Shown: positions 1-31,597, counted from the first letter of the stretch. The stretch is 64,000 bases of DNA from Elusimicrobiota bacterium (GCA_040757695.1 JBFLWK010000001.1:89758-153757), one strand, 5' to 3'. Numbers and translations are program-made. Notes: generated from the letters alone by a model not told the origin.

Positions 1-347
1 CGAACAAGGAAATAAACTAAAAGGACATTCAGGGTATGGAATAAAAGATTAGTCAAATGATAGCCAAACGGTTTCCATTTCCAGATTCTATAGTCAATGC
101 TTAATGCTAAAGTCCGCATTGGTGCCACAGGGACATATGCATCTACATCGTGAAACTTGCGGTAGTTTTTCCAGTAGGAAGGTGTAAGAAAAAAAAGCGG
201 ATTTTTCAGATGGTTTTGATAATCCTGTTGAGAAATCAGTTCTACAAGCCCTGCATCATCCCACATAAATGGGTTTCTTAATGTATTTGCAAAAGTCAAT
301 ATTGAAACAATCACTAAAAGTAAAACATTGATATAGGTTTTTTGCAT
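1..347 (-). CDS. 5'-partial gene (ATG at 345-347, continues past window start): N-terminus of a TMTC/PMT_2-like GT-C glycosyltransferase, probably with C-terminal TPRs
   Basis: My translation of the minus strand: MQKTYINVLLLVIVSILTFANTLRNPFMWDDAGLVELISQQ...YVPVAPMRTLALSIDYRIWKWKPFGYHLTNLLFHTLNVLLVYFLV. It has an N-terminal TM helix, an FxWDD motif and a PxRPLxxLSxxxDY...GYHLxNxLLH block typical of bacterial TMTC/DUF1736-type GT-C proteins. The start sits 3 nt after the stop of the upstream methyltransferase. It is absent from the ORF track only because the window truncates it. Confidence 0.5.
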   Translation of the reverse strand, partial: MQKTYINVLLLVIVSILTFANTLRNPFMWDDAGLVELISQQDYQNHLKNPLFFLTPSYWKNYRKFHDVDAYVPVAPMRTLALSIDYRIWKWKPFGYHLTNLLFHTLNVLLVYFLV

Positions 348-350
348 TTT

Positions 351-953
351 TTACTTTTCGGCGACAACAAGTTGATAGAATATCGGTCCAAACCTTTCAG
401 TTAATTTTACATAGAATTTATTCTCAACTAACAGTGTTTTCAATTGCTTAAAATTATATCTCCTTAAATGGTCGTTCGGCTTGAACCTTAAAAAAGTAGC
501 TATTTTATCAAGAAACGGGTCAACCGCAGTCAATACAATCAGTCCATTTTTTTTTAACACACGATAACTCTCTGAGAGCACTTTTCGGACATCGGTCACA
601 TGCTCAATTACCGATGCGATAATAACTATATCAAACTCGTTCTCATTAAACGGAAGATTCTCACCGTAACCGGCTAAAAGTTCTATATACGTGTCTTTTT
701 TTGCTAACCGAAGTTCATCCGAGGGCTCTATTCCGACTGCTTTTTTTAACTGTAACTCAGCGTTTAACCTGCTTAACATCTCGCCATCAGCCGCACCAAT
801 ATCAAGCACCTGTAAGCCCGGTTTGTAATTTTTTTTTAGTATTCCTAAAACTTTTTCGGTTCTTTTACGAAGCCGGTATCTGGTAAAAAGATTCTTCTGC
901 CGTTTCCTAAGATAACTTGTCATCGTTAAAAAAGCCTCGCTAACGCTCGGCAA
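351..953 (-). CDS. Class I SAM-dependent methyltransferase (type 11 domain)
   Basis: VLDIGAADGEML is a glycine-rich SAM-binding motif I, followed by the acidic loop IVIIASVIEHV; 200 aa. Confidence 0.7.
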   Translation of the reverse strand: MPSVSEAFLTMTSYLRKRQKNLFTRYRLRKRTEKVLGILKKNYKPGLQVLDIGAADGEMLSRLNAELQLKKAVGIEPSDELRLAKKDTYIELLAGYGENLPFNENEFDIVIIASVIEHVTDVRKVLSESYRVLKKNGLIVLTAVDPFLDKIATFLRFKPNDHLRRYNFKQLKTLLVENKFYVKLTERFGPIFYQLVVAEK

Positions 954-1209
954 CCCGCAGAAACCGCAGAATACCCGCAGATTACGCAGAGATTTTTATC
1001 TCTTTCTGCGGACTCTGCGGCTTTTCTGCGTAATCAGCGGACAATACTACAGCGAACACAGAGATTTATTTCTTTTTCAATTTAAGAAACTGTATTACAA
1101 CCAAACTGTCTAATGAAACCAATCCGCATAGTACTGCTGCATCAAAAGGCGTATTTATCACCTTAACCAAGTGTAAAACCAGAAACAAAATCGTTCCCAT
1201 TAGTTTTTT

Positions 1210-2223
1210 TTACCCTGTTAAATAGCAGGGCAACCCTCCTTTTTTTATTACATTCAGTACTGATTTGATTGTGCCGAACTTAAATGCAAGTAAAAAACTT
1301 AACTCAAGCGAGCCGCAAAAGCCGCAACCACTACAACGAACTTCCGGAAGATTAGCAAATGCATTCTTAAAGCCAACCTTAAGCCAATTTGGCAGTTCTG
1401 TTTTATAGCAGATTCGGTCACAAGGATAGACCGTTCCGTCGGTATCAACAATACAGAAAAGTTTACCAGCAGCACAGTGTAATTTTGGATAATCGGGCCA
1501 GTAAAAGATATGTTTAAGTCCGAGTAGTGAATTCCTCATATATCCGTTTCCTTTTTGTTTTAGTTCAATAAGTTCTGAGAGCGCTTTTTGATATTTACTT
1601 TTTTCGGGATAAAGTGATTCTATATTATCTGTACCGTAACCGAATTTTTTTAACGGCTGGAATGCAACGATAGTCTTATATTTTTTTGCCAAGCCAAGTA
1701 TAAAATCTAGCTGCTCAATATTTTGTTTGGTCAGGGTTGTAGCGATTGTTGTTTTTATACCGTGTTTTATAGCGGTTTCTATCGCTTTAATTGATTGTGT
1801 AAATGCGCCTTTTCTGCCGGATAAAAAATCGTGTGTCTGTTCATCACCGTTTATGCTCACTTTAAGCAGGTCCAGATTTTTAATTTTATGAACTTTAGTT
1901 TCAATCCCAGCACCGCGGGAATTCATCTCAGGCGAGATATCCAACGCCCTGCAATAGTCAATAATTTCACCTATATCACTGCGTAAAAGCGGCTCACCAC
2001 CACTGAAAGAAATTTTTTTTGTTCCGGCAGTTTTCAGTTGTCTGATCAGTTCAAAAACCTGCTCCGTTGTCATCTCTTCAGATTTTGTCTGCCATATATC
2101 ACAATAAAGACATTTGTGGTCGCACCGATTGGTCAGTTGAATCCTAACTGCAACAGGAATCCTTTTCCCTGCTTTTACTTTCAGAATAGAAACAGCAGAA
2201 TTTATTATTGCGTTCAGTTTCAT
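1210..2223 (-). CDS. Radical SAM enzyme with C-terminal SPASM/twitch Cys cluster
   Basis: CDHKCLYCDIW is a CxxxCxxC rSAM motif and SFSGGEPLL a G-rich SAM motif. C-terminal cysteines (CAAGKLFCIVDTDGTVYPCDRIC...CSGCGFCGS) fit a SPASM auxiliary cluster domain. Confidence 0.8.
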   Translation of the reverse strand: MKLNAIINSAVSILKVKAGKRIPVAVRIQLTNRCDHKCLYCDIWQTKSEEMTTEQVFELIRQLKTAGTKKISFSGGEPLLRSDIGEIIDYCRALDISPEMNSRGAGIETKVHKIKNLDLLKVSINGDEQTHDFLSGRKGAFTQSIKAIETAIKHGIKTTIATTLTKQNIEQLDFILGLAKKYKTIVAFQPLKKFGYGTDNIESLYPEKSKYQKALSELIELKQKGNGYMRNSLLGLKHIFYWPDYPKLHCAAGKLFCIVDTDGTVYPCDRICYKTELPNWLKVGFKNAFANLPEVRCSGCGFCGSLELSFLLAFKFGTIKSVLNVIKKGGLPCYLTG

Positions 2224-2318
2224 ACTTTTTTTGACAGGATTAACTGGATTTTGACTTAATCCTGTAAATCCTGTCAGAAATATCTTTTGACTTTATCCTG
2301 TTAATCCTGTCAGGGTCT
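2224..2318. promoter_or_regulatory. Direct-repeat motif ATCCTGT(A/T)AATCCTGTCAG(A/G) ×2 plus a related TTGACAGGATTAA, in the 5' region of the rSAM gene at 1210-2223
   Basis: ttgacaggattaactggattttgacttaatcctgtaaatcctgtcagaaatatcttttgactttatcctgttaatcctgtcagggtc. The same motif is upstream of lysA at ~10258-10282. Confidence 0.5.
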
Positions 2319-4529
2319 CTTTAAAGCAGAAACAGTTTTTAAACTTCTGAACATAACGCCTAAAGTGAACTTTGACTTCCCGAAAATTCTGTCGTGATAG
2401 ATTATTGGAATCTCTTTTATTTTTAACCCGTTTCTGACCGCTTTATAGACCGTTTCTATAAGCACTGATGTGCCTTCAACGGACCGAACTGAATCCATGT
2501 TTATGGATTCAATTGCTCCACGGCTGTAACACCTGAATCCTGATGTGCAATCAAAAATACCGTTAAGTTTAAGTTTATTCCTGACATATAAATTGGCAAG
2601 CCAACTTGCCGATTTTCTTAAAATACTTCTGCCTGTCTCGGCGCCACCTGGGACATATCTTGAGCCGATAACTATATCAAAATAATGTATCCAGTAAAGA
2701 AATTCTGAAATATAGCCAGGGTCATGCGATAAATCCGCATCCATCTCTATGATTGTCTCCGCACCTGTAGATAATGCAGCTGAAAAACCGGCTTTAACCG
2801 CGAGACCTCTTTCATTCCAGTGATTATATTTTTTACTTTTTAGAAGATGTACCTGTGGATATAAAACCGAGAATTGTTGAACTGCTACACCGGTGTCATC
2901 AGTAGAATTATGGTCAACAACATATATCCGAATTGACGGGTACAACACAATAATTTTTTTCAATAAGCCGAGTATATTGTCTCGCTCGTTGAATGCCGGG
3001 ATAACAACAGCGACTTTTGTAACAGGTTCAGTTATTATATTTTTATGTAACTGCTGATGGGCTAATTTTTGGATAAACCTTGAGCCCATAGCAATACTAA
3101 CATCCGTATAAAAATAATGAAAAACCATTCTGATAGCAACTTTTATATATCTTGCCAGTTCACTGAAAGATTTTGTTCGTTGAAGCGTTTGAAAAATATA
3201 GCCGGGTCTGAAATAGAAACTGTAATATGCCCGTTTTAATAGTTTCTCTATTTTTGCTTGATTCATTCTTACCCATGGTGTAGGGATTCGCTGTTCGCCA
3301 AGTTTCATCAAAACAAAATCACGCCAGTAATCAGTGCCTGTATTTTTTACCAGTTGTTTATGAAGTTCGGTAGCGGGTTTCGCAATTGTTCTACAAATCT
3401 GAACATAGTCAAGCGCCAATTTTTTAGCGAATTTTACTGTATCGGTTACCGTATCTTCCGTATCGCCAGGGTTGCCTATCATCAAGAATCCAAGATTTCT
3501 TATGCCGAATTTTTTAGCTGTTTTTATAACAACCGCCGTTCTGTTGTGTGTTATTCCTTTATTCACTTCATTCAGTACCTTTTGCGAACTGGATTCTATA
3601 CCCCAGAAAATCATCCTGCAACCGGATAAAGATGCTTCTTTTAAGATTTCGTCGTCAACAACATCAACTCGCGTTCTGCAACTCCATTGGATATCAAGAT
3701 GCCGGTTTCGTATTTCCTGAAATAGTTTGATAGATTTCTGTTTGTCCACAAAAAAAGTAGCATCAAAAAAGTCAATCTCTCTTACACCATAATCATAATA
3801 ACATTCTTCTATTTCGCGGATAACATTTTCCCAGGTTCTCTCTCGGTAATGGTTTAGTGCAGCGATTGCGCAGAACCTGCATCTATACGGGCAGCCGGTA
3901 GAAGTAAGCATAACGGTAAAATTCTTATTTTGTGAAACAAAAGAATGATAGCGGTCGTTCGGCAGAAGATGTCTTGCCGGGAATGGATAAGTATCAAAAT
4001 TAACCAGTTCTGTATCTGGTGGATTGATATGAACTCCACCATTATTATCGCGCCAGCATAACCCTGGAATATTTTGATACGGTTCTGAATTTTCTAAATT
4101 CCGAATAAACTGCGGTAATGTGCGAACCGCCTCGCCAATCAGCCCGAAATCAATCTCTTTATGCGACATTGTCTCAGTCGGATAAAGTGACATATTTATC
4201 CCGCCGACAAGCACAGGCAATCCCGTTGCGAGTTTCAAATACTGTATCCATTCCAATGTCTCCTGAAAATTGTATGTATCCAGCCGGAATGCAATCAGGT
4301 TGGTGTTAAACATTTTTATTTTTTTCAGGACCTGCTCTTTTGATAACCCGAGTGCATGCGCATCTATTAAGATAACATCATTCCCAGCATGCTCTAAAAT
4401 CGAGGATACATAGGCAAGAATAATCGGCGGTGATAGAGTGAATTCCTCGTCTACAACTTTCAGGTTTTCAGAAAATTTCCTATGATGAAACGGCGGAAAA
4501 ATTAGCGCTACTCGCATAGCAAACACCAT
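2310..4529 (-). CDS. Fusion protein: B12-binding domain + radical SAM core + C-terminal GT2 (DPM1/polyprenyl-phosphate sugar synthase-like) glycosyltransferase
   Basis: N-terminal Rossmann-like B12-binding region (RVALIFPP...LIDAHAL), then rSAM CxxxCxxC (TSTGCPYRCRFCAIA). The C-terminal ~230 aa form a GT-A fold: VAVVIPAFNERDNI...DHNSTDDT...EMDADLSHDP...IVIGSRY. Confidence 0.75.
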   Translation of the reverse strand: MVFAMRVALIFPPFHHRKFSENLKVVDEEFTLSPPIILAYVSSILEHAGNDVILIDAHALGLSKEQVLKKIKMFNTNLIAFRLDTYNFQETLEWIQYLKLATGLPVLVGGINMSLYPTETMSHKEIDFGLIGEAVRTLPQFIRNLENSEPYQNIPGLCWRDNNGGVHINPPDTELVNFDTYPFPARHLLPNDRYHSFVSQNKNFTVMLTSTGCPYRCRFCAIAALNHYRERTWENVIREIEECYYDYGVREIDFFDATFFVDKQKSIKLFQEIRNRHLDIQWSCRTRVDVVDDEILKEASLSGCRMIFWGIESSSQKVLNEVNKGITHNRTAVVIKTAKKFGIRNLGFLMIGNPGDTEDTVTDTVKFAKKLALDYVQICRTIAKPATELHKQLVKNTGTDYWRDFVLMKLGEQRIPTPWVRMNQAKIEKLLKRAYYSFYFRPGYIFQTLQRTKSFSELARYIKVAIRMVFHYFYTDVSIAMGSRFIQKLAHQQLHKNIITEPVTKVAVVIPAFNERDNILGLLKKIIVLYPSIRIYVVDHNSTDDTGVAVQQFSVLYPQVHLLKSKKYNHWNERGLAVKAGFSAALSTGAETIIEMDADLSHDPGYISEFLYWIHYFDIVIGSRYVPGGAETGRSILRKSASWLANLYVRNKLKLNGIFDCTSGFRCYSRGAIESINMDSVRSVEGTSVLIETVYKAVRNGLKIKEIPIIYHDRIFGKSKFTLGVMFRSLKTVSALKRP

Positions 4530-4581
4530 CCTTTTTTATTAAGTTCTTTAATTTAACCACGAAAACACGAAAACACGAAAT

Positions 4582-4630
4582 TTCTACGAAACTTTAGTTT
4601 CGGTTATACCGCCACTAAAGTGGCGTAGAA
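4582..4630. repeat. Double-hairpin intergenic element TTCTACGAAACTTTAGTTTCGGTTATACCGCCACTAAAGTGGCGTAGAA (family copy 1), preceded by (ACGAAAAC)×3
   Basis: Outer stem TTCTACG/CGTAGAA; inner hairpins CGAAAC-TTTA-GTTTCG and GCCAC-TAAA-GTGGC. Confidence 0.7.
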
Positions 4631-4697
4631 AGTAGCCTTACTGATATCAATTCTATCTTTCTGTGATTCTGTACTTCAGTGGTAAATACTTTTATCG

Positions 4698-5774
4698 TTA
4701 TATCATAATGGCTCTGATAATCAATGGTAATAACTGATTGATATTAAAAAACGAATTTATCTGCAGGTTACATTCGTTAGTGCACCAGCATCTGCCGTCG
4801 GCTATGTATTCTCTCGTTTTTTCGGCTGCATCCGAAAACCACAGAGACCTGAAATTGTAATCATAATCCCTTAAATTACCCAATTTCTTATCCAGAGATT
4901 CACAGGGATATACATCTAACGAACTATCTATTACCGTACTTAATCTGCCGGCATAACAATCAATCGGATATTTTTTCGTATTCACAATTTCAGTAACCAA
5001 TTCGCTTATTTTTGTCTTGTATGCTGAATAAAACTCGTAAAAACCGAATCCATTCTTTTTTTCTTTTAACAAATCATTGAGAATCTGAAAATACAATTTC
5101 TGATAATCCGCTATATTTATATCATTAGTCGAGCTATCTGTAAAATTTCTACGGCTAAAGTTTAACCCAACAACATCCGGTGACAAATTATTTTTTATGT
5201 ATGTATAAGTATCGCTGAGTGTGTCTTGATTCAACTTTGAGAATGTTAGTAGGATACCGAGTTTAAAATTTGGATATTTCTGTTTCAATCCTTTCAATAC
5301 AGTAAATGTTTCAATATCTTTATTAAAACTACCGTCAATTGCTCTGATATTATCATGCTTTTCACCAATGCCGTCAATAGATATTTTAACTAAAATTTTT
5401 GTCTTACCTGCAATCTTAAGTATCTTTCGGGTTGAATCAAAAATCTTCTCCGTAAAAAAACCGTTGGTCGGAATAGAAATTCTGGCAACTTTGTTTATGT
5501 TAACAAATAGTCCAGCGATTTCTGACAAATCCTCTCTTAAAAACGGCTCACCACCAGTCAAACTCAAAAAACTGAACCTGCCTAAACTGGGAATTATTCT
5601 TTTTAATTCATCTAAAGTAAACTCCACATTTGCTTTGTTCAAATTCTGTCGGTAGAAACAATGCTGGCAGTTCATATTACATCTGTTTGTGACAAAAAAT
5701 GTTACCTGTTCCGGTAGAACACCATTATGCAAAAATATCTTTTTTGACCATCGTATTTTATCAGAAACAGCCAT
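4698..5774 (-). CDS. Radical SAM enzyme with C-terminal auxiliary Cys cluster (SPASM/twitch-like)
   Basis: NRCNMNCQHCFY is CxxxCxxC; LTGGEPFL; C-terminal Cys motif CYAGRL...YPCESL...DGRCWCTNEC. Confidence 0.75.
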   Translation of the reverse strand: MAVSDKIRWSKKIFLHNGVLPEQVTFFVTNRCNMNCQHCFYRQNLNKANVEFTLDELKRIIPSLGRFSFLSLTGGEPFLREDLSEIAGLFVNINKVARISIPTNGFFTEKIFDSTRKILKIAGKTKILVKISIDGIGEKHDNIRAIDGSFNKDIETFTVLKGLKQKYPNFKLGILLTFSKLNQDTLSDTYTYIKNNLSPDVVGLNFSRRNFTDSSTNDINIADYQKLYFQILNDLLKEKKNGFGFYEFYSAYKTKISELVTEIVNTKKYPIDCYAGRLSTVIDSSLDVYPCESLDKKLGNLRDYDYNFRSLWFSDAAEKTREYIADGRCWCTNECNLQINSFFNINQLLPLIIRAIMI

Positions 5775-5775
5775 A

Positions 5776-6804
5776 TTAGTATCTTTTTTTTATGGGAAAC
5801 ATCAGCAGGGTACTGAAAATCGCCATCTGCGCTATCAGCATCTCAAAATAATATACGAAAAAACAGCCGACAGAAATAAATAATCCTTTTCTTTTCCTGA
5901 TAAGATTCAAAAAATCAAAATTCAGAAAAATAAATAACAGAATCAATGCGATACTCACATAAAGGAAATACTGGCTTTTGGATAACGCCGCACCGGTAAC
6001 ACTAGCGGCAATCAAAAACGACAAAAAAATGCTGATAAATTCGGGCATCATTTTTTCCTTTGGGTTCAGCGAATAAGTTATCTCCACAGAATTTTCTGGT
6101 ATTGCCGTTTTCGGTTTAAAATAATTATTCAACAATAAATTCGTTTTGGCGTATACTTTACGGTAATCAGTTCTTAAAAGTCTGGTAAATGTATACCGTT
6201 TCAAATGTTTCACACGAAGATTTTTATCCAATAGAATCTTATAACCGTTTTTTACCAGCCGCATACCGAGTTCAACATCTTCAACTCCTTCATACTGTGG
6301 ATTAAAACCATTTATCTTTTCAAACACCTTTTTTTTAATTGCAAAACAGTAACTGTTAATTCCGTTAATCTGACTACGGTTTATTTTTTCAATTTTATGG
6401 TATTTGTAATAATTTCTGGTCAATGTGGATACATTGTTATCGGCTGCTTCTTCCGTATAAACCCCCTGTATAACATCGGTTTCCGGGTATTTTTCATATA
6501 TTTCGGCGATTCGGTGCAAACAATTTTTCTGTAACATAACATCGGCGTCAAGAAAAAGTATTACTTCTGCATCAGCATTTTTGGCACCTTCGTTTCTTGA
6601 TACGGATGCACCGGAACGCTTACTTAAATTCATAATTTTACACGGGAAGTCCTTCAATCTGTCCGATAAACCGTCTTCCGAACAATCATTAACAACCGTC
6701 ACATCGTATTCTGGATAATTCTGGACATAAATTGCACTTAAACACTGCTTAATGGCATCGCCAGCATTGTGCACAGGCACAACAATAGAAATCTTTTTAA
6801 CCAT
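5776..6804 (-). CDS. Family 2 glycosyltransferase with C-terminal transmembrane helices
   Basis: ISIVVPVHNAGDAI...VVNDCSEDG...FLDADV is a GT-A DxD-type fold; two hydrophobic helices at the C-terminus. Confidence 0.7.
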   Translation of the reverse strand: MVKKISIVVPVHNAGDAIKQCLSAIYVQNYPEYDVTVVNDCSEDGLSDRLKDFPCKIMNLSKRSGASVSRNEGAKNADAEVILFLDADVMLQKNCLHRIAEIYEKYPETDVIQGVYTEEAADNNVSTLTRNYYKYHKIEKINRSQINGINSYCFAIKKKVFEKINGFNPQYEGVEDVELGMRLVKNGYKILLDKNLRVKHLKRYTFTRLLRTDYRKVYAKTNLLLNNYFKPKTAIPENSVEITYSLNPKEKMMPEFISIFLSFLIAASVTGAALSKSQYFLYVSIALILLFIFLNFDFLNLIRKRKGLFISVGCFFVYYFEMLIAQMAIFSTLLMFPIKKRY

Positions 6805-6899
6805 AATAACTTATAACCCATCACTCACATATTGAGATTTTTTATTCATTGTAAGTAATCGGTTATTAGTTATCACATTAACTGCCGGGTGTTCGGGTA

Positions 6900-7514
6900 T
6901 TAAAGCCGAAGGTTGTGGAAACGGTAGTAAAGGCAAGGTGATAAGGTGATAAGGTGATAAGGTGATAAGTAAAAACAAGGAAGTAAAACAACAAAACCTA
7001 AAAGAAGCAAGAATAGTTTTTCAAAAAATTTCTTTAAAACCGTAAATATAACTGCTAAATCTGCAATCTGCAATCTGCAATCTGCAATCTTCAAATAGTG
7101 TTTAGCCACTGTGAATAACTTCTGGAGCAAATTCACAACCAGGATTTGTGAATGAACCGGTGTATTGAATGTCAGTGTGATGAGTGAACTCAAAAAAAGC
7201 GTCCGAAGTCCGAGGCCGGGGATTCGAGACCTGTCATTCTGAGCCGAAGGCGAAGAATCTTGTGTGTTAACACCAGGATTCTTCACTTCGCTGACGCTCC
7301 GTTCAGAATGACAACCTTCTACTCGCAACTCGCTACTCGCTACTTGCTGGTTTTGGGTATCTCTTTCATCCAGACCGCTGTCCCAATTCTTGATTGCCTG
7401 TTTTACTTCATTAGGGCAATTGGGATTGATAGTATTTGCAAAACAAAAAGCACTCGCTAACCCTATTAAGAAAGCGGCAGAAACTATAATAATAATAATT
7501 TCTCGTTTTGACAT
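6900..7514 (-). CDS. Hypothetical small secreted/membrane protein. Only the N-terminal ~60-100 aa look genuine; the 3' part of the ORF runs through SSRs and an inverted-repeat element.
   Basis: N-terminus MSKREIIIIIVSAAFLIGLASAFCFANTINPNCPNEV looks like a signal/TM segment followed by a Cys-containing mature region. The downstream part of the ORF spans the palindromic element at ~7232-7313 and (aatctgc)n / (ggtgataa)n repeats, so the true stop is doubtful. Confidence 0.25.
   Translation of the reverse strand: MSKREIIIIIVSAAFLIGLASAFCFANTINPNCPNEVKQAIKNWDSGLDERDTQNQQVASSELRVEGCHSERSVSEVKNPGVNTQDSSPSAQNDRSRIPGLGLRTLFLSSLITLTFNTPVHSQILVVNLLQKLFTVAKHYLKIADCRLQIADLAVIFTVLKKFFEKLFLLLLGFVVLLPCFYLSPYHLITLSPCLYYRFHNLRL
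7057..7093. repeat. 5× AATCTGC heptanucleotide repeat, with 3× GGTGATAA octamer repeat at 6948-6971, in the 5' region ~150-290 nt upstream of the GT2 gene at 5776-6804
   Basis: ctgcaatctgcaatctgcaatctgcaatct; ggtgataaggtgataaggtgataagg. Confidence 0.8.
7232..7313. repeat. Large imperfect inverted repeat: TGTCATTCTGAGCCGAAGGCGAAGAATC ... GATTCTTCACTTCGCTGACGCTCCGTTCAGAATGACA
   Basis: The two arms share the termini TGTCATTCTGA and GAAGAATC in opposite orientation. A related element is at 40419-40495. Confidence 0.6.
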
Positions 7515-8036
7515 TTTTTGTTCAATCCTTTTTTTTCGGCAGTCAAGCCTCCAAAAATAGCAAATAGCTTCTGGCTTATAGCATATAGTTTTTATAGAAC
7601 TATTCTGCGAAACTTTACCCCGTATCTAATACGGGGCGATGCTAAAGCCTCGTAGAATAAAACCTTACCGAAATTGCAAACTGTTACAGAACCACATTTG
7701 CTATTTTCGTTTAACTATACTTACATCGGCTCGGTACTATGGTACTATAATTATAAAGAATTTTTTGAATTTTGTCAATTACTTTTTTTGTAGTTTCTGT
7801 AGTCAAAAAGAAAACAAGATAACACAGTCTGAAGCCTGCGGCTACCAACCAACAAGGTAGCCGCTCCGATAAATCGGAGCCGCAAAGGACGGTAGAAAGC
7901 TTTTAATTGAAATTTCTGGGTTAAAAAGAAGTGTAAGCACGAAACAAGCGAGCAACCACGAGCAGCAGTGTGTCTCCCGATATTCATCGGGTTCGCAATG
8001 ATACAGGAAATAGATGTCAACCAATTTTGTGGATAT

Positions 8037-8066
8037 CAAAAATGTAAGCATTTGCTTACATTTTTA
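8037..8066. repeat. Perfect palindrome AATGTAAGCATTTGCTTACATT (copy 1 of 3), immediately downstream of the dapF stop
   Basis: Identical 22-mer at ~8041-8062, ~8869-8890 and ~31695-31716; flanked here by A/T runs. Confidence 0.8.
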
Positions 8067-8077
8067 TTATTCTCTTT

Positions 8078-8854
8078 TTAAAGAATGTAATGGACTTTAC
8101 CTTCAAAAAAGGCAGTTCTGCCATTGTAATATATTTTTAACGTTTCACCGCCTTGAGTAAGCACATTGACCGGTGAACAGACATATTTTTTTAGGATAGA
8201 AATTATTGCTGAGGCAACGACACCTGTTCCACAGGCGAGTGTCTCGGCTTCCACACCGCGTTCATATGTTCTGATTTGCAATTTATTTCTGCTTAAAACT
8301 TTTACGAAATTAACATTTGTGCCTGATGGCTGAAATCTCTTGTGCCATCTGATAGCCCTGCCTAAATGTTCAACATCAACATTTTTAATATCTTTAACAA
8401 AAATTACTGTATGTGGCACGCCAGTATCGGCAAAAGATGCTTCAAACTTTTTGCCGGCTATTTTTAGCAAAAAATCTAACCCAAAATTTTTGGGTTCAGG
8501 CATCTTTATTTTTACAACTGATTTTTTTTTTACTTCGGCATTAATCAAACCAGCATCCGATTCAAAAACCATTTTTGCTGAAGAAATTTTATTAAGGTAT
8601 GCAAAAAGTGCTATACATCTGGCACCATTACCGCAAAAAGCAGCGTGACTACCATCAGAATTGTAATAAACCATTCTGAAATCAGTATTTCGGCGCAAAG
8701 ATTTTTCAACAAGCAAAAGCCCGTCTATATCTTCTCTGCGGCAGTATTTTTTTGCGAATACCGACGGATTGCTTACAAGTGGTTTTCTGTTATCAATCAC
8801 AATAAAATTATTACCGCTACCCGACATTTTTGTAAGATTCAAACTTTTTTTCAT
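8078..8854 (-). CDS. dapF: Diaminopimelate epimerase
   Basis: MSGSGNNFIVIDNR at the N-terminus; catalytic cysteines in FCGNGARC and LACGTG; 258 aa. Confidence 0.9.
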   Translation of the reverse strand: MKKSLNLTKMSGSGNNFIVIDNRKPLVSNPSVFAKKYCRREDIDGLLLVEKSLRRNTDFRMVYYNSDGSHAAFCGNGARCIALFAYLNKISSAKMVFESDAGLINAEVKKKSVVKIKMPEPKNFGLDFLLKIAGKKFEASFADTGVPHTVIFVKDIKNVDVEHLGRAIRWHKRFQPSGTNVNFVKVLSRNKLQIRTYERGVEAETLACGTGVVASAIISILKKYVCSPVNVLTQGGETLKIYYNGRTAFFEGKVHYIL

Positions 8855-21005: not shown

Positions 21006-21597
21006 CTGTTATATTTTCCTTCTTCTTGAATTTTTTATATGCTAAAAAGCCAACTGTAGAAGCCAATTGTTGGACACAAATAAAATTCGTTTCCATAAAA
21101 TTTGTTTCTGTTGCGATTTTTTTTAGTATCTCAGGTTCTCCTGCGAGCACTGATTTTTTGCCAGCAAGTTTTTCCAAATTGCTTATTTTTACTATTTTGT
21201 ATTCCGTTTCTCGCTTTAAGCCAGTATATTGGGCTGTATAGACCTCTTCACGAAACGCGTCAACTATCGGGAAAATGCGGCTTGTAAAATTTATTCCTTG
21301 TATTGCTGAATATACTAAACAATCCAAACTGGATATTCCAACAACTGGGATTTTTAAGAACTGCCCGAAAACACGAGCTAACGAAATACCTATTCTTATA
21401 CCTGTAAAAGAACCAGGACCTGTATCAACTGCAACAGCATCAAACCGGTGTTTTTTTGTTATACCATTAATAATCTCAAAAATTTTAGATGACGATTTTT
21501 TTGGCAAAAAGATATTTTGCTCTGTAATTATCTCGGTATCACAAACCAGCGCAGCACCACAGGTATTACCCGATGTTTCAATTGCAAGTATTTTCAC
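20932..21597 (-). CDS. tsaB: tRNA threonylcarbamoyladenosine biosynthesis protein TsaB
   Basis: MKILAIETSGNTCGAALV and VDTGPGSFTGIRIGISLA, the ASKHA TsaB/YeaZ core. Confidence 0.85.
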   Translation of the reverse strand: MKILAIETSGNTCGAALVCDTEIITEQNIFLPKKSSSKIFEIINGITKKHRFDAVAVDTGPGSFTGIRIGISLARVFGQFLKIPVVGISSLDCLVYSAIQGINFTSRIFPIVDAFREEVYTAQYTGLKRETEYKIVKISNLEKLAGKKSVLAGEPEILKKIATETNFMETNFICVQQLASTVGFLAYKKFKKKENITGGYETVLPLYIRHAYVDEQKKINR

Positions 21598-23537
21598 TCA
21601 GCTCTTTCTCCATTGTTTTTCACGCATCCTTCTCGTTTTATTTCAGGAAGGGGGCGGGGTTTATAAATTTTTCTGCTGAAAAATAAAATTGAAAATATGG
21701 AAACCAAAATTCCGATTGTAAAAGATACTGGCATAAAAATAAAAACTATTTTTTTGGAGTTGGGGTTGACACTTACAGCACGGGTTAAAACATCTGTTTC
21801 TTTTATTCGTGCTGGTAAACCATCAACAAAAACTCGCCAGCCTGGATAGTTATAATCCGAAAGAATAATTGTGCCATCTTTATTTATATCTTTTTCTATT
21901 TCTATTTTACTATCTTGATATTGTAAAAACTGTAAAGGCAATTTTTTTTGTGTTTTTTTATCTACAAAAATAGCGTGTGAAATATAATCGTTATTGCAAT
22001 AAATTTTCAATTCCGGTAGAAACAACGGTAAATAAATTTTTTCAACCAATACCAATCTTCTATCATTCAATACAGATGATGAGAAAATATATTTTACCGT
22101 TGATTTAGCAAGTTTTAAATACTCTGACTCGTTAACTGGTGCAAGTGGTGAATAAATATTTATAGAACTGATATTAAAAATTGTATTTATATTTGCTGGT
22201 AAATAGTTCAGATAACTTTTTTGCGATATATAATTGGTTTCCGGTTGTGTAGATAGAATATAGTTTCTAATCCACGCTTTCTTGCTATCATCTATCACTA
22301 AAACTTTTGGATTTTCTTTATCGTTTCTTAAGAACTTGACTGAAGCAGGTGGTAAAAAATAGTTCAGATTCAATACCTTATTAAAATCAAAACCAAAGTT
22401 TATCAGTTCTAAAAGAATGATTGAAAAAACTATTATTTTAAATCTTTTTAGTGTCTGAAATCCGGATGCTGAAACTATAGCAAGCGAAAATGCGACAAAA
22501 ACCAGAAAACGCTGTGGTAAACGAAAAAAATTGAAGCAGGGTATATACGAAACCAATTTGGAAATTAACGGGAATACAAGTAAAAAGAGAATTATACCGA
22601 TAACAATTCCATAAAAAAATTTGACAAATTTTTCTTTTTTATTTTTTATAAATCCGATAATCACCAGCAAAAGTGTCATAATTCCGACAAACGCACAATT
22701 CTCATATAAAATGCTATGATAATATCTGTAAGTACCTCGTACAGGATTACCAAATATATAAGGATAAATAAATAACAAAAGGTCTTTTACATAATAGCCC
22801 CAAGAAAACATATCCGCAGATACAACACCTTTAGTCCGTATAGAGTGTGGAATAAGTTCAATCGTAGGCAAAACCTGGCAAAACGCAATCTCAATTGCAA
22901 AAACAGCCGATAATAGAAAATTAAGTATATCTTTAATTTTTCTTGTATTAAATAACAACCAGAAAAATAAAACTATTCCGGTATAATACCCAATTTGTGG
23001 GAAACCTGATAACAATTGTAACGCAAAAATGGCAGACAAGAGTAGATACTTTTTTCTTATGATAAATAGAAACCCTAATGGAATCCATATACATGAATTT
23101 AATAAATTCATATGTTCAGCATGGCAGGCAAAAAAACCTGAAAGGCAGAAAATAACTGCCGCTAAAACTGCGGATATTTTTTTAAGTTTTACTTCTTTTA
23201 CAAAAAGGTACATAAAAAATCCTGCAAAAAAAATATGCAAAACATATACATAATTATACGCAATCCACTGCGGAAAAATCGCAAAAAGAATATTTAGTGG
23301 ATAAAGAAAGCCACCCTGCCCTTCCGCATGAATAGGAAAACCTAAAAATATATTATTATTCCACAGTGGAAATTCACCTGTATACAGAGAATTACCAAAG
23401 AAAAAACGTGCAGGGAAATACATCTTTGTAATATCATTGACACCAGCTTGCTGGGCTGAAAATAGTCCGAACATTAAAATTGTTTTGAAATGCAAAACAA
23501 AAATTAAAAATAACAATACTATTGATACCGCTGCCAT
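21594..23537 (-). CDS. YfhO-like polytopic membrane protein (GT-C-type glycosyl carrier lipid-dependent transferase family)
   Basis: At least 12 TM helices; N-terminal FPLWNNNIFLGFPIHAEGQGGFLYPLN resembles the YfhO signature; large C-terminal extracytoplasmic domain. Confidence 0.5.
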   Translation of the reverse strand: MAAVSIVLLFLIFVLHFKTILMFGLFSAQQAGVNDITKMYFPARFFFGNSLYTGEFPLWNNNIFLGFPIHAEGQGGFLYPLNILFAIFPQWIAYNYVYVLHIFFAGFFMYLFVKEVKLKKISAVLAAVIFCLSGFFACHAEHMNLLNSCIWIPLGFLFIIRKKYLLLSAIFALQLLSGFPQIGYYTGIVLFFWLLFNTRKIKDILNFLLSAVFAIEIAFCQVLPTIELIPHSIRTKGVVSADMFSWGYYVKDLLLFIYPYIFGNPVRGTYRYYHSILYENCAFVGIMTLLLVIIGFIKNKKEKFVKFFYGIVIGIILFLLVFPLISKLVSYIPCFNFFRLPQRFLVFVAFSLAIVSASGFQTLKRFKIIVFSIILLELINFGFDFNKVLNLNYFLPPASVKFLRNDKENPKVLVIDDSKKAWIRNYILSTQPETNYISQKSYLNYLPANINTIFNISSINIYSPLAPVNESEYLKLAKSTVKYIFSSSVLNDRRLVLVEKIYLPLFLPELKIYCNNDYISHAIFVDKKTQKKLPLQFLQYQDSKIEIEKDINKDGTIILSDYNYPGWRVFVDGLPARIKETDVLTRAVSVNPNSKKIVFIFMPVSFTIGILVSIFSILFFSRKIYKPRPLPEIKREGCVKNNGERAE

Positions 23538-25371: not shown

Positions 25372-25777
25372 CTCTTGGCCTCGTTGGTTTTGAAAGATTA
25401 TGAATCACCGTAATATCGCCAATTTCTGAAATTTTATAACTTCCGTGACATCTTTTCCTCTTGGCGTAAAATTCCGTCTTGCAAAAGCCGGGCAGAAGCC
25501 ATAAAAAATTCCCCAAAACAATCCCATATACAGTCCCAAAAAGTTTGAATGACAATGCAATTAGAAATGCCTCTATAAAAGTACCACCACCGTAAGAAAC
25601 ATTGTAGGGCTTTATTGTTGTCTTGCCAGTTTCAACCAATTCTTTTGCTATCAAACCATATATCGCTTCCTCGCCAGAAGGATATTGATAGGTTGTAGAA
25701 AGCAAACTAAACCTTAATATCCCTACAGATAATAATATCGTAACAATAGCCAAATTTTTTATATTTTTTTTTGTCAC
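25358..25777 (-). pseudogene. Short ArnT/PMT-like N-terminal paralog fragment (139 aa); possibly a remnant, or a split N-terminal module
   Basis: YPSGEEAIYGLIAKELVETGK mirrors the DE...Y...A motif of the neighbouring GT-C genes, but the protein ends after ~3 TM helices. Confidence 0.3.
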
Positions 25778-30631: not shown

Positions 30632-31597
30632 TCATTGCGGACAGGAGTGCATTAATTTGTGAATATAATTTTTAATTTCTTTAACTGCAGCAGGGTGGTT
30701 CATAACGAGAATATCGCTGCCGGCTTGAATATACCCGCAGGCAGTTATGATTTCCCAGTTAATACCTCTTGTTTCAAGATTTCCCCACTCGGGCTTTTCG
30801 GTTTCGTCTGCTTTACATTCTTTAGTTTTCCATGTTTCCTGACCAATGAATGTAATTACTGGTTGTGCCATCATTTTGTCATTCACAAGTGCAGCAAGCC
30901 GTGTTCGTTCAATTATAGAATAGCAGTACTCAAACCCGTAACCAAGTCCACCCGTTGAAGGATGAATAACAATTCTGTCTGCTGAAAATCCTATATCGGT
31001 AATCAAAATATTTAACTGTTTTTCAAGATTTATATCAAGCGGTGTCTCTGCAATTAAAGAATGTCCACCTGCCTGCGCAGCGGCAACGAATGTTTTATGA
31101 TTTTCTTTGGTTGCCATACCGAACAAGCAGTTTTCACCTTTTGCTGCCTGGCTTATATCCATAATAATCAACGAGTCTTTCTCATTATTCCCACAGCCGA
31201 CGATTATTAAAGGAACCGAAGTAACAGCCAAAACATCTTTTACTGTTTTTGCTACTTCAGATGCATCCGCGTTTTTACCGTCTGGGTTTGCACTTTCTAA
31301 TCGCAAACATATCAAATCAGCACCGAGTTGCTCGCATTTTTTAGCCCACTGTACTGGATTTTCCAAAACATCACCATACTCATTTTTAAGAATATCAGGC
31401 CAATCAGTTGGCTCAACATCCCAGACCTCCATAGCAACTGCAGGTAGATTAGGGATTTGTCCTTCAAAAAAAAGGAACGGCAGTGTATTGCTACCACCTA
31501 TTTTGATTTTTTTAGTCCGTGTTCCACCTTCCTCTTTTATAGCGCCGATTGTCAGTTCATAAATTTTTCCTTGCCATTTTTCAAGAACCTGCTCCAT
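30632..31597 (-). CDS. acsD: Corrinoid iron-sulfur protein small subunit (CODH/ACS delta subunit)
   Basis: TIM-barrel AcsD/CdhD-like: WQGKIYELTIGA...GGTRTKKIKIGGSNTLPFLFFEG...AVAMEVWDVEP...VPLIIVGCG; 321 aa. Confidence 0.7.
   Translation of the reverse strand: MEQVLEKWQGKIYELTIGAIKEEGGTRTKKIKIGGSNTLPFLFFEGQIPNLPAVAMEVWDVEPTDWPDILKNEYGDVLENPVQWAKKCEQLGADLICLRLESANPDGKNADASEVAKTVKDVLAVTSVPLIIVGCGNNEKDSLIIMDISQAAKGENCLFGMATKENHKTFVAAAQAGGHSLIAETPLDINLEKQLNILITDIGFSADRIVIHPSTGGLGYGFEYCYSIIERTRLAALVNDKMMAQPVITFIGQETWKTKECKADETEKPEWGNLETRGINWEIITACGYIQAGSDILVMNHPAAVKEIKNYIHKLMHSCPQ

What the first reader, a model, noticed from the sequence alone, without database searches (positions are those of the whole stretch)
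2310..4529. Single polypeptide fusing a B12-binding radical SAM methyltransferase-type module to a DPM1-like GT2
The first ~500 aa have a cobalamin-binding Rossmann domain and the CxxxCxxC rSAM core (TSTGCPYRCRFC), which is the class B rSAM architecture that typically methylates unactivated carbons. The last ~230 aa are a GT-A glycosyltransferase with the DPM1/ArnC/GtrB-type motifs (VVIPAFNE...DAD). Covalent fusion implies the sugar-lipid made by the GT2, or its nucleotide-sugar substrate, is the direct substrate of the radical enzyme, for example to form a C-methylated hexosyl-phosphopolyprenol. I am not aware of a characterised example of this fusion.
Basis: partly seen in the sequence, partly recalled or inferred. 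Interest (0 to 1): 0.7.

Follow-up and report, generated by a model that had tools for sequence, protein, structure and literature searches.

The report
Radical SAM enzyme fused to glycosyltransferase
One real 739-residue gene in an uncultured Elusimicrobiota bacterium joins a vitamin-B12-dependent radical enzyme to a synthase that loads sugar onto a membrane lipid carrier; the pairing recurs in many uncultured microbes, so it probably makes a chemically altered lipid-linked sugar for the cell surface, but the chemistry is unknown.

Summary
Window 2310-4529 (- strand) is one 739-aa ORF, with a likely start at 4517. It has a B12-binding domain, a radical SAM core with an invariant CxxxCxxC, a variable 17-36-residue linker and a GT2 domain.

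It is not an assembly artefact. About 80 independent full-length homologues (42-68% identity) exist in Elusimicrobiota, Omnitrophota and PVC MAGs, and a natural split orthologue exists (L013).

The GT2 domain is a TM-less DPM1/DPMS-type polyprenyl-phosphate glycosyltransferase. It superposes on P. furiosus DPMS at 2.2 A and keeps the metal, donor and Dol-P phosphate-binding residues family-wide.

The radical module is class B. Its nearest curated families are HpnJ, BchE and BzaD, none of them methylases, and all far below cut-off. C-methylation is therefore plausible but unproven.

B12-rSAM, DPM1-like GT2 and class I methyltransferase genes are adjacent or fused in every pairwise combination across many phyla. 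In Elusimicrobiota the gene sits in a conserved cassette with a membrane GT2, two SPASM-type rSAMs, a methyltransferase (elsewhere fused to a flippase-like domain) and multi-TM/TPR proteins.

Best reading: it makes and radically tailors a lipid-linked sugar for envelope glycosylation. I found no paper describing it. Moderately interesting, uncharacterised.

The parts
2310..4529 (-). Whole fusion ORF, 739 aa. Probable true start is Met5 at 4517, giving 735 aa. Stop codon at 2310-2312.
   Evidence: ORF list. 100% match to NCBI MAG protein P0001, 735 aa. Upstream sequence.
4107..4430 (-). B12 (cobalamin)-binding Rossmann domain, aa 34-141.
   Evidence: Pfam PF02310, E 2.5e-13, 50.4 bits against cut-off 32.1. 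Model pLDDT >90.
3426..3908 (-). Radical SAM core, aa 208-368. Includes the CxxxCxxC cluster motif C213/C217/C220 (window 3870-3893) and the GIES motif 310-313.
   Evidence: Pfam PF04055, E 2.8e-23. Cysteines invariant in 64/64 fused homologues.
3102..3425 (-). C-terminal helical part of the rSAM module, aa 369-476. It aligns end-to-end with the HpnJ model and ends in the conserved T475-D476.
   Evidence: HpnJ HMM alignment, aa 36-462 to profile positions 35-457 of 472. Helices 388-476 in the model. The split orthologue L013 ends here.
3021..3101 (-). Inter-domain linker, aa 477-503. Low confidence, variable in length (17-36 residues) and in frame in all homologues.
   Evidence: pLDDT 42-59. 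Linker length distribution and frame check.
2313..3020 (-). DPM1/DPMS-type GT2 (GT-A) domain without TM helices, aa 504-739. DAD motif D597-D599 lies at window 2733-2741. Predicted interface helices at 636-653 and 723-737.
   Evidence: Pfam PF00535, E 4e-19. PfDPMS 5mlz: sequence E 4e-18, Foldseek rmsd 2.2 A over 242 columns. Residue conservation.
5776..6804 (-). Cassette partner: GT2 with C-terminal TM helices, 342 aa. Fused to the next gene in L009.
   Evidence: Pfam/NCBIfam. Synteny in L003 and L009.
4698..5774 (-). Cassette partner: radical SAM/SPASM protein, 358 aa. Starts 1 nt after the end of the upstream GT2.
   Evidence: Pfam Radical_SAM, Fer4_12 and a weak SPASM hit. Synteny.
1210..2223 (-). 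Cassette partner: second non-B12 radical SAM protein with a Cys-rich C-terminus, 337 aa.
   Evidence: Pfam Radical_SAM and Fer4_12. Synteny in L003, L009 and L010.
351..953 (-). Cassette partner: class I SAM methyltransferase (Methyltransf_11), 200 aa. Orthologues in L003 and L009 carry an N-terminal LPG_synthase_TM flippase-like domain that is missing here.
   Evidence: Pfam. 50% identity to aa 290-478 of the L009 LPG_TM-MT protein, with no LPG_TM hit anywhere in the window.
3..347 (-). N-terminus (115 aa, runs off the window) of a multi-TM + TPR protein with a conserved FMWDD first-loop motif. Candidate GT-C transferase.
   Evidence: 63% identity to L003_529. Own-HMM hit of 105 bits. GT-C assignment is only weak: PMT_2 E 0.016 for one paralogue.

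Best explanation
The gene encodes a genuine bifunctional, membrane-peripheral enzyme of an envelope-glycoconjugate pathway.

1. The C-terminal domain is a DPM1/DPMS-type synthase. It transfers a hexose from a nucleotide sugar to a polyprenyl phosphate and makes a polyprenyl-phospho-sugar. The sugar is most likely mannose from GDP-mannose, judged by similarity, but its identity is not established.
2. The N-terminal cobalamin-dependent radical SAM module then uses a 5'-deoxyadenosyl radical to modify that same lipid-linked sugar at an unactivated carbon. I consider C-methylation the single most likely chemistry. An HpnJ-type ring rearrangement is a close second.
3. A partner class I methyltransferase adds a further methyl group. 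That partner is encoded two genes downstream here; it is immediately downstream or fused elsewhere.
4. In sister genomes a flippase-like LPG_synthase_TM domain fused to that methyltransferase would move the product across the membrane.
5. Multi-TM/TPR proteins (GT-C-like), or the YfhO and PMT_2 enzymes encoded in the same window, would transfer the sugar onto surface acceptors.

Shown: the domain identities, conservation of catalytic and Dol-P-binding residues, the reality of the fusion, and the recurrent genomic coupling.
Inferred: the substrate-product relation between the two domains, the chemistry of the radical step, the sugar, the flipping and the final acceptor.
For: Domains and motifs.

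The fusion is conserved:
- About 80 independent full-length homologues.
- 80 invariant columns spread over both modules.
- The linker is in frame in 64/64 sequences.

The GT domain is a DPMS-type enzyme:
- 5mlz is the best solved match by sequence (E 4e-18) and by fold (rmsd 2.2 A, 30% identity); ArnC and GtrB come next.
- The closest standalone relatives (38-48% identity, 230-260 aa) are annotated as polyprenol monophosphomannose synthase or dolichyl-phosphate mannosyltransferase.
- PfDPMS residues are conserved. These are Glu12, Asp38, Asp89/Asp91, His94, the Dol-P phosphate triad Arg117/Arg131/Ser135, and A-loop Arg202/Lys208. Counts are 64/64, 63/64, 64/64, 64/64, 64/64, 63/64, 56/64, 64/64 and 63/64.
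- A TM-less PfDPMS truncation stays membrane-targeted and active (PMC5526996).

Coupling in the 80 loci L010-L089, picked only by rSAM motifs:
- 3 loci are fused, 14 have a directly adjacent same-strand pair in either order, and 6 have a DPM1-like GT2 within 5 kb. L011 is the same contig as L009, which was already held.
- Many of the partner GT2s keep the DPMS signature residues.
- L013 is a natural split orthologue.

Rosetta-stone triangle:
- B12-rSAM+GT2+MT (P0064).
- GT2+MT (L057) and B12-rSAM+MT (L058).
- LPG_TM+MT.
- TM-GT2+rSAM/SPASM.

Context:
- Elusimicrobiota synteny includes two multi-TM/TPR genes.
- YfhO and PMT_2 GT-C genes lie in the window.
- Corrinoid enzymes in the window show the organism uses cobamides.

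From my own knowledge, not checked here: GenK and GenD1 C-methylate aminoglycoside sugars, and MoeK5 C-methylates a lipid-phosphoglycerate-linked sugar. PMC12931638 lists all three as Csp3-methyltransferases.
Against: - There is no biochemical or chemical data for any member. All carriers are MAGs.
- The nearest curated rSAM families are non-methylases: HpnJ (best E 2.3e-58), BchE and BzaD. All 64 fused members match these families.
- Close rSAM orthologues occur with no DPM1-like GT within 8 kb, although the rest of the cassette is kept. These are L003 (65% identity over the rSAM module) and L008. The rSAM step therefore does not strictly need a cis-encoded Pol-P-sugar synthase.
- The window lacks the flippase-like domain.
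- The GT-C nature of the TPR proteins is not established. PMT_2 gave E 0.016, the PDB profile search found nothing, and hhalign gave probability 1.2%.
- The window protein alone has His at the position of the guanine-recognising Asp39, so the donor nucleotide is uncertain.
- The domain orientation in the model is unreliable.
Confidence: 0.5

Rival explanations
1. The architecture and substrate are the same, but the radical module is not a methylase. Like HpnJ (and Cds in archaea), it abstracts a sugar hydrogen and contracts or rearranges the ring of the lipid-linked hexose. The product is a carbocyclic (cyclitol-type) phospholipid head group. That would be a stable end-product lipid rather than an activated glycosyl donor.
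For: - HpnJ is the top NCBIfam hit for the window protein. It scores 172.5 bits and aligns end-to-end, aa 36-462 to profile positions 35-457 of 472.
- HpnJ gives the best E-value of any family across all 64 fused members, followed by the non-methylases BchE and BzaD.
- HpnJ is thought to act on a lipid-linked hexosamine made by the GT2 HpnI (PMC13459092).
- The cassette also holds a membrane GT2 with weak HpnI and HpnB hits.
- In sister genomes there is a flippase-like membrane domain. From memory, HpnL belongs to the same superfamily.
Against: - The HpnJ score is far below the 577.6 cut-off.
- No hopanoid genes were seen in the window or the loci.
- The LPG_TM proteins do not hit the HpnL model.
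- HpnJ's own mechanism is only hypothesised.
- A carbocyclic product could not serve the GT-C-type transferases that co-occur.
- The recurrent methyltransferase partners fit a methyl-decoration theme.
Confidence: 0.2
2. The two domains work in one pathway but not on each other's product. The rSAM module would modify the nucleotide sugar before transfer, the lipid acceptor, or the finished glycan or protein. The fusion would then only secure co-localisation at the membrane and stoichiometry.
For: - rSAM orthologues occur without a nearby DPM1-like GT (L003, L008).
- B12-rSAMs of this superfamily are also fused to other GT2 types and to other rSAMs (L071, L048, L088).
- The linker is long and flexible, with no confident interface.
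- From my own knowledge, class B enzymes acting on nucleotide-activated substrates exist (Fom3, OxsB).
Against: - The methyltransferase is fused to a lipid-flippase-like membrane domain. It is also fused to the GT2 (L057) and to the rSAM (L058). This argues that all three meet on a membrane-bound, lipid-linked intermediate.
- Gene order varies but the adjacency persists across phyla.
Confidence: 0.24
3. This is an assembly or annotation artefact: two neighbouring genes merged by a sequencing or frameshift error near 3000-3100.
For: - Split gene pairs do exist in nature (L013, L006).
- The source is a MAG.
Against: - About 80 independently assembled full-length homologues, including all the closest relatives at 52-68% identity, have the same continuous ORF.
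- The linker is in frame in 64/64 sequences and contains the conserved T475-D476.
- The alternative frames are full of stops.
Confidence: 0.01
4. The GT2 domain is catalytically dead. It would serve only as a polyprenyl-phosphate or sugar-binding targeting module for the radical enzyme.
For: - The window protein deviates from the family consensus at three positions: H540, T687 and S688.
- It has no TM anchor.
Against: - Every metal-, donor- and acceptor-binding residue defined for PfDPMS is invariant or nearly so across the family, and all are present in the window protein.
Confidence: 0.04

Closest known systems
Dolichyl/polyprenyl-phosphate mannose synthases (P. furiosus DPMS, PDB 5mlz; human DPM1; short bacterial Ppm-type enzymes)
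   Same: - GT-A fold at rmsd 2.2 A and 30% identity to 5mlz.
- DAD(L)SH motif.
- The Dol-P phosphate triad and A-loop residues are conserved.
- Two interface helices are predicted.
- 38-48% identity to standalone enzymes annotated as mannose synthases.
   Different: - It has no TM domain and no separate anchor subunit identified.
- It is covalently attached to a 476-residue radical SAM module.
- The sugar and nucleotide specificity are untested.
- The window protein has His where Asp39 reads the guanine.
HpnI/HpnJ (with HpnK and HpnL) hopanoid side-chain pathway
   Same: - A GT2 builds a lipid-linked hexose(amine), and a B12-type radical SAM enzyme then rearranges it.
- HpnJ is the best-scoring curated family for the N-terminal module and aligns full length.
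   Different: - The score of 172 bits is far below the 577.6 cut-off.
- There is no hopanoid gene context.
- The partner GT2 is DPM1-type, with a phosphate acceptor, not HpnI-type.
- The HpnJ proteins described are not fused to a GT.
Class B radical SAM sugar C-methyltransferases (GenK, GenD1/GntE, Fms7, MoeK5)
   Same: - Cobalamin plus radical SAM architecture acting on unactivated sugar carbons.
- MoeK5 acts on a lipid-phosphoglycerate-linked sugar (my own knowledge). PMC12931638 lists these enzymes as Csp3-methyltransferases.
   Different: - These enzymes belong to antibiotic pathways and are stand-alone.
- No curated model of them scored above HpnJ, BchE or BzaD.
Three-component periplasmic glycosylation systems (GtrA/GtrB/GtrC; CsbB/GtcA/YfhO; ArnC/ArnE-F/ArnT)
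   Same: - A Pol-P-sugar synthase GT2 is present.
- A flippase-like membrane protein is present in sister cassettes.
- Candidate GT-C transferases are present: the multi-TM/TPR proteins, plus YfhO and PMT_2 in the window.
   Different: - Three radical SAM proteins and a methyltransferase are inserted into the scheme.
- The flippase candidate is LPG_synthase_TM-type rather than GtrA-type, and it is absent from this window.
- The GT-C status of the TPR proteins is unproven.

Membership tests
Cobalamin-dependent (class B) radical SAM enzymes | N-terminal B12-binding Rossmann domain | tested here: met
   PF02310, aa 34-141, 50.4 bits against cut-off 32.1.
Cobalamin-dependent (class B) radical SAM enzymes | CxxxCxxC [4Fe-4S] motif in a partial TIM-barrel radical SAM core | tested here: met
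   C213/C217/C220 are invariant in 64/64. PF04055, E 2.8e-23.
Cobalamin-dependent (class B) radical SAM enzymes | Fold similarity to solved class B enzymes | tested here: met
   Foldseek: TsrM 6wte E 4e-22, MgmA/QCMT 9ccb 8e-22, OxsB 2e-19, TokK 6e-18, CysS 3e-17. The top hit is AprD4 6fd2, E 2.5e-23.
Cobalamin-dependent (class B) radical SAM enzymes | Actual cobalamin binding and methyl transfer | not testable with these tools
   Needs purified protein. A review states that methylases and non-methylases cannot be separated by sequence or structure.
HpnJ (TIGR03471) | Score at or above the curated equivalog cut-off (577.6 bits) | tested here: not met
   172.5 bits. Best family-wide E is 2.3e-58, still sub-threshold.
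HpnJ (TIGR03471) | Hopanoid biosynthesis gene context (shc, hpnH/G/I/K) | tested here: not met
   None seen in the 64-kb window. The precomputed Pfam lists for L001-L009 show no cyclase domain. Only weak sub-threshold HpnH, HpnI and HpnB hits on neighbours.
DPM1/DPMS-type polyprenyl-phosphate glycosyltransferases (GT2) | GT-A GT2 domain with a DXD (DAD) metal/donor motif | tested here: met
   PF00535, E 4e-19. D597-A-D599-L-S-H602 is invariant.
DPM1/DPMS-type polyprenyl-phosphate glycosyltransferases (GT2) | Acceptor-phosphate binding residues (PfDPMS Arg117, Arg131, Ser135), said to be conserved in bona fide DPMSs | tested here: met
   R624 64/64, R638 63/64, S642 56/64. All three are present in the window protein.
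DPM1/DPMS-type polyprenyl-phosphate glycosyltransferases (GT2) | Acceptor loop Arg202/Lys208 locked by Glu12 | tested here: met
   R714 64/64, K720 63/64, E515 64/64.
DPM1/DPMS-type polyprenyl-phosphate glycosyltransferases (GT2) | Closest solved structure is a Pol-P glycosyltransferase | tested here: met
   5mlz: rmsd 2.2 A over 242 columns, 30% identity. GtrB comes next by fold, and ArnC and GtrB by sequence.
DPM1/DPMS-type polyprenyl-phosphate glycosyltransferases (GT2) | GDP-mannose donor specificity (Asp39 reading guanine N1/N2) | tested here: inconclusive
   The position is Asp in 48/64, Ser in 14/64, and His only in the window protein.
DPM1/DPMS-type polyprenyl-phosphate glycosyltransferases (GT2) | Measured Pol-P-sugar synthase activity | not testable with these tools
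   Biochemical assay required.
Three-component (GT2 + flippase + GT-C) periplasmic glycosylation system | Dedicated flippase encoded with the GT2 | tested here: inconclusive
   An LPG_synthase_TM flippase-like domain is fused to the MT in L003, L009 and L001, and stands alone in L008. It is absent from the window. No GtrA-type protein was seen.
Three-component (GT2 + flippase + GT-C) periplasmic glycosylation system | GT-C transferase that consumes the Pol-P-sugar | tested here: inconclusive
   The syntenic multi-TM/TPR proteins give only PMT_2 E 0.016, no PDB hit and hhalign probability 1.2%. Bona fide YfhO and PMT_2 genes lie 17-23 kb away in the window.

The most novel reading that the evidence does not exclude
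This fusion, together with its split and triple-fused relatives, marks an undescribed and widespread pathway. Carriers include Elusimicrobiota, Omnitrophota and other PVC-group MAGs, with related split gene pairs in Patescibacteria, DPANN and other archaeal MAGs. In this pathway a polyprenyl-phosphate sugar is edited by radical SAM chemistry (C-methylation or carbocycle formation) plus SAM-dependent methylation while still on the lipid carrier, and is then exported. The result would be a new class of lipid-linked sugar donors or head-group lipids in the envelopes of uncultured anaerobes.
Probability: 0.35. Interest if true: 0.75.

Novelty: new variant of a known kind. Interest (0 to 1): 0.55.

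Why it matters
Both halves belong to well-known enzyme families. No radical SAM enzyme is known to act on a polyprenyl-phosphate sugar, and no such fusion appeared in the papers I could search.

If the coupling is real, it adds a new tailoring level to lipid-linked sugar donors. It would also predict unusual C-methylated or carbocyclic sugars, or cyclitol phospholipids, on the surfaces of phyla that are almost entirely uncultured.

The fusion gives enzymologists a self-contained test case, because the GT domain would make the candidate substrate for the radical domain in the same tube. That could also help define what separates methylating from non-methylating B12 radical SAM enzymes, which is still an open problem.

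If it is only a co-localisation fusion, it is still a useful genomic marker for a conserved envelope-glycosylation cassette.

Tried and rejected
- Frameshift or merge artefact: rejected on homologue conservation and the frame check.
- HpnJ membership: rejected, 172 bits against a 577.6 cut-off and no hopanoid context.
- The flippase-like partner being HpnL: not supported. The LPG_TM proteins hit only the generic TIGR00374 model.
- Fetching more of the source contig through P0001: no record.
- Testing GT-C identity of the TPR proteins. Pfam at E<=10 gave one weak PMT_2 hit, the PDB profile search gave nothing, and hhalign against the window's PMT_2 protein gave probability 1.2%. All are inconclusive.
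- AFDB fold search: the library was unavailable.
- Domain orientation and channelling from the AF2 model: not assessable, because the linker has low pLDDT and no PAE or coordinates were given.
- Rfam and tRNA scans of the window: none found.
- Promoter and terminator scan of 1-8100: counts are at shuffle level, apart from one perfect sigma-70 consensus at 7778-7750.
- Literature: three full-text searches found no description of the fusion. This is not proof of absence, since subscription journals are not covered.
Full report
**1. Observation**

Window 2310-4529 holds one uninterrupted 739-codon ORF on the minus strand. Pfam places three domains in it, all above gathering thresholds:
- B12-binding, aa 34-141, E 2.5e-13.
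- Radical_SAM, aa 208-368, E 2.8e-23.
- Glycos_transf_2, aa 508-675, E 4e-19.

The same protein is in NCBI as 'MAG: radical SAM protein [Elusimicrobiota bacterium]'. That record is 735 aa and 100% identical (P0001). The real start is therefore probably Met5 at window 4517, which also fits the homologue N-termini.

**2. Is the fusion real?**

A search of 5.8 billion proteins returned about 80 independent full-length proteins of 694-767 aa, plus one of 959 aa. They carry the same three domains at 42-68% identity. They come from Elusimicrobiota, Omnitrophota and PVC-group MAGs, plus one MAG labelled Lokiarchaeia.

In an alignment of 64 of them, 80 columns are invariant and are spread over both modules. 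The inter-domain spacer varies from 17 to 36 residues but is in frame in every sequence. In the window, the other two frames across the junction are full of stops.

A natural split orthologue exists in an Omnitrophota MAG (L013). It has a 471-aa rSAM protein (55% identity to aa 5-470) and, 9 nt downstream, a 254-aa GT2 that aligns from aa 489. An assembly merge is therefore excluded for practical purposes.

The orthologous fused family is compact. At 50% clustering, only two of the top 150 representatives are full-length (P0012, P0097). The rest are ~470-aa B12-rSAMs, and 6275 representatives match at E<=1e-30.

**3. The C-terminal domain**

- Its best solved relative by sequence is Pyrococcus furiosus dolichyl-phosphate mannose synthase (5mlz, E 4e-18). 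ArnC and GtrB follow.
- An AlphaFold2 model built on the 64-sequence alignment has mean pLDDT 89.1. Its GT domain superposes on 5mlz at rmsd 2.2 A over 242 columns with 30% identity.
- The closest standalone proteins are 230-260 aa, 38-48% identical and have no TM segment. Those that carry a name are mostly called polyprenol monophosphomannose synthase or dolichyl-phosphate mannosyltransferase.

I mapped the residues that the PfDPMS structure paper defines (PMC5526996) through the HMMER alignment and counted them in the family:

| PfDPMS residue | Window residue | Conservation |
|---|---|---|
| Glu12 | E515 | 64/64 |
| Asp38 | D539 | 63/64 |
| Asp89/Asp91 | D597/D599 | 64/64 |
| His94 | H602 | 64/64 |
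| Arg117 (Dol-P phosphate) | R624 | 64/64 |
| Arg131 (Dol-P phosphate) | R638 | 63/64 |
| Ser135 (Dol-P phosphate) | S642 | 56/64 |
| Arg202 (A-loop) | R714 | 64/64 |
| Lys208 (A-loop) | K720 | 63/64 |

The model has helices where the two interface helices of PfDPMS lie (636-653 and 723-737), and the protein ends right after the second one. The same paper reports that PfDPMS truncated after that point is still membrane-targeted and active.

The domain is therefore a catalytically intact, monotopic, DPM1-type polyprenyl-phosphate glycosyltransferase. The sugar is not established. The position of the guanine-reading Asp39 is Asp in 48/64, Ser in 14/64, and His only in the window protein.

**4. 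The N-terminal module**

Its fold matches AprD4, TsrM, MgmA/QCMT, OxsB, TokK and CysS, with E values from 1e-23 to 1e-16. Among NCBI's curated models, the window protein scores as follows:

| Family | Score (bits) |
|---|---|
| HpnJ | 172.5 |
| Sden_1168 P-methyltransferase | 140.4 |
| Ladderane-cluster B12-rSAM | 117.4 |
| PhpK | 112.2 |
| BzaD | 111.1 |
| BchE | 107.1 |

HpnJ aligns end-to-end, aa 36-462 to profile positions 35-457 of 472, but its cut-off is 577.6 bits. The other families are also far below their cut-offs.

Across all 64 fused members the three best families by best E-value are HpnJ (2.3e-58), BchE and BzaD. None of these is a methylase. HpnJ is thought, from genetics, to contract the ring of a lipid-linked glucosamine that the GT2 HpnI installs (PMC13459092).

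A 2026 review states that non-methylating B12-rSAMs sit in the same large group as the methylases. It reports no distinguishing structural features (PMC12931638). The module is thus class B, is not HpnJ, and its chemistry cannot be read from sequence.

Four further cysteines are conserved: C243, C379, C304 and C284, in 64, 63, 62 and 57 of 64 sequences. I could not test whether they form an auxiliary cluster.

**5. Genomic context**

In the window, all on the minus strand, the gene lies in this order:
- a GT2 with C-terminal TM helices (5776-6804);
- a radical SAM/SPASM protein (4698-5774);
- the fusion (2310-4529);
- a second non-B12 radical SAM protein (1210-2223);
- a class I methyltransferase (351-953);
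- the N-terminus of a multi-TM/TPR protein that runs off the window (3-347).

The same order is found in two other Elusimicrobiota contigs.
- In L009 the fusion is present, the first two genes are themselves fused into a 714-aa GT2-rSAM protein, and the methyltransferase carries an N-terminal LPG_synthase_TM flippase-like domain.
- In L003 the B12-rSAM is 65% identical over the module but has no GT domain, and no DPM1-like GT lies within 8 kb.
- Both contigs continue with two paralogous multi-TM + TPR proteins that share an invariant F-x-W-D-D first-loop motif.

I suspect these TPR proteins are GT-C transferases of the TMTC/PMT type. That idea comes from memory. The tests gave only a sub-threshold PMT_2 hit (E 0.016), no PDB match and an insignificant hhalign result.

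In Omnitrophota the fusion sits in polysaccharide-type clusters with GT1, GT2, epimerase, Wzy_C and DUF4330 genes. A methyltransferase lies directly downstream, and in P0064 it is fused to give a 959-aa three-enzyme protein.

**6. How general is the coupling?**

I fetched 80 loci from species-representative genomes using only two rSAM peptide motifs. I scanned their ORFs with HMMs built from the components.
- 3 loci carry the fusion. One of them, L011, is the same contig as L009, which was already held.
- 14 loci have a DPM1-like GT2 directly adjacent on the same strand, in either order.
- 6 more have one within 5 kb.
- Many of the partner GT2s keep the DPMS signature residues.

Pfam confirmed further fusions:
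- GT2 + methyltransferase (L057).
- B12-rSAM + methyltransferase (L058).
- B12-rSAM + a different GT2 (L071, L048).
- B12-rSAM + rSAM/SPASM (L088).

Every pairwise combination of B12-rSAM, DPM1-like GT2 and class I methyltransferase thus exists as a single polypeptide somewhere. The methyltransferase is also found fused to a lipid-flippase-like membrane domain. This argues that all of them meet on a membrane-bound, lipid-linked intermediate.

A neighbour-joining tree of the rSAM module puts the fused proteins in two clades. Genuinely unfused proteins on long contigs (P0024, P0031) nest inside the Elusimicrobiota clade, so the GT domain has been gained or lost more than once.

**7. Wider window**

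- Two bona fide GT-C enzymes that need polyprenyl-phosphate sugars are encoded 17-23 kb away: YfhO (21594-23537) and PMT_2 (25774-27363).
- Corrinoid-dependent acetyl-CoA pathway components are present (two CdhD-like genes and RACo), so cobamides are used in this organism.
- LPS transport and core genes show a diderm envelope.

**8. Interpretation**

The best-supported model is a bifunctional enzyme. Its GT domain makes a polyprenyl-phospho-hexose, and its radical module then edits that sugar.

I rate this direct coupling at about 0.5. It excludes the HpnJ-type variant, which I list as a separate rival at 0.2. Within the coupled model, C-methylation is the single most likely chemistry.
- For methylation: most characterised class B enzymes are methylases, precedents exist on sugars, the product would stay an activated donor for GT-C enzymes, and the methyltransferase partners fit.
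- For an HpnJ-type rearrangement: it is the nearest curated family and also acts on a lipid-linked sugar made by a GT2.

A looser model, with the same pathway but a different substrate for the radical domain, gets about 0.24, mainly because some orthologues lack a nearby DPM1-like GT. The artefact and dead-domain readings are essentially excluded.

**9. Novelty**

Both halves are known kinds, and the sequences are already in public databases under generic names. The combination, its breadth and the implied chemistry on a polyprenyl-phosphate sugar were not described in any paper reachable here.

I class it as a new variant of a known kind, of moderate-to-good interest (0.55). The specific C-methylation proposal is reasonable but untested, and it is not favoured by the nearest curated relatives.

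Noticed in passing
L009:5860-8004 (same contig as L011); window 4698-6804: A second GT2-radical SAM fusion occurs in the same cassette. The membrane GT2 and the rSAM/SPASM protein are separate genes 1 nt apart in the window. In an Elusimicrobiales MAG they form one 714-aa protein, with the GT2 N-terminal.
   Followed up: partly
L005:8001-10880 (P0064); L057:4581-5972; L058:6187-8361; L088:932-3640; L071:526-3066; L048:8740-10556: Other fusions of the same components were confirmed by Pfam. They are B12-rSAM+GT2+methyltransferase (959 aa), GT2+methyltransferase, B12-rSAM+methyltransferase, B12-rSAM+rSAM/SPASM, and two distant B12-rSAM fusions to another GT2 type.
   Followed up: partly
window 953-1210: Orthologous cassettes have an LPG_synthase_TM domain fused to the methyltransferase. 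The window instead has a 257-nt intergenic stretch. It holds a 36-nt-arm imperfect inverted repeat (955-990 / 1005-1040) built from CCGCAGA units. It folds strongly as RNA (z -4.7, no shuffle as stable).
   Followed up: partly
window 6805-8077: About 1.27 kb upstream of the cassette has no convincing gene. The 204-aa ORF at 6900-7514 has no Pfam hit. The stretch is rich in short tandem repeats: AAGGTGAT x4 at 6935-6966 and AATCTGC units at 7058-7087. A perfect TTGACA-17-TATAAT lies on the - strand at 7778-7750, pointing toward the cassette.
   Followed up: no
window 4530-4697: The 168-nt gap just upstream of the fusion gene contains a 24-nt-arm inverted repeat (4581-4631). It also has three tandem AAACACGA units (4555-4580; TTTCGTGT on the coding strand). 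This may be a terminator or regulatory element that separates the fusion from the upstream rSAM gene.
   Followed up: no
window 21594-23537 and 25774-27363: YfhO-family and PMT_2-family membrane proteins are encoded here. Both are GT-C glycosyltransferases that use polyprenyl-phosphate sugars, so they are possible consumers of the fusion's product.
   Followed up: no
window 30632-31597, 31892-33919, 36530-37843: Two CdhD-like corrinoid Fe-S protein subunits and a RACo reductive activator are present. The organism runs corrinoid-dependent acetyl-CoA pathway chemistry, so it has cobamides available.
   Followed up: no
window 2310-4529, residues C243, C284, C304, C379: Four cysteines outside the CxxxCxxC motif are conserved in 57-64 of 64 fused homologues. 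They could form an auxiliary cluster or have a structural role.
   Followed up: no
window 2910-2912 (residue H540): The position equivalent to PfDPMS Asp39, which reads guanine N1/N2, is His only in the window protein. It is Asp in 48 and Ser in 14 of 64 homologues. Nearby T687 and S688 also depart from the family consensus (Y, A). The donor specificity may therefore differ.
   Followed up: partly
L007 (P0092, contig labelled Candidatus Lokiarchaeia): The only archaeal-labelled full-length fusion groups tightly inside the Omnitrophota clade in the rSAM tree. Mis-binning or recent transfer seems likelier than an archaeal origin.
   Followed up: no
L009:16842-18184 onward: A gene called as a 13,124-residue product begins directly after the two TPR genes of the Elusimicrobiales cassette. 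It could be a giant surface protein and hence a possible glycosylation target.
   Followed up: no
window 59090-60817: A Wzy_C (O-antigen ligase-type) domain is fused to a C-terminal HAD phosphatase domain. It lies among LPS core and transport genes: LptA/LptC at 43023-44344, a KdsA-like gene at 46264-47073, a PfkB kinase and a GT1.
   Followed up: no
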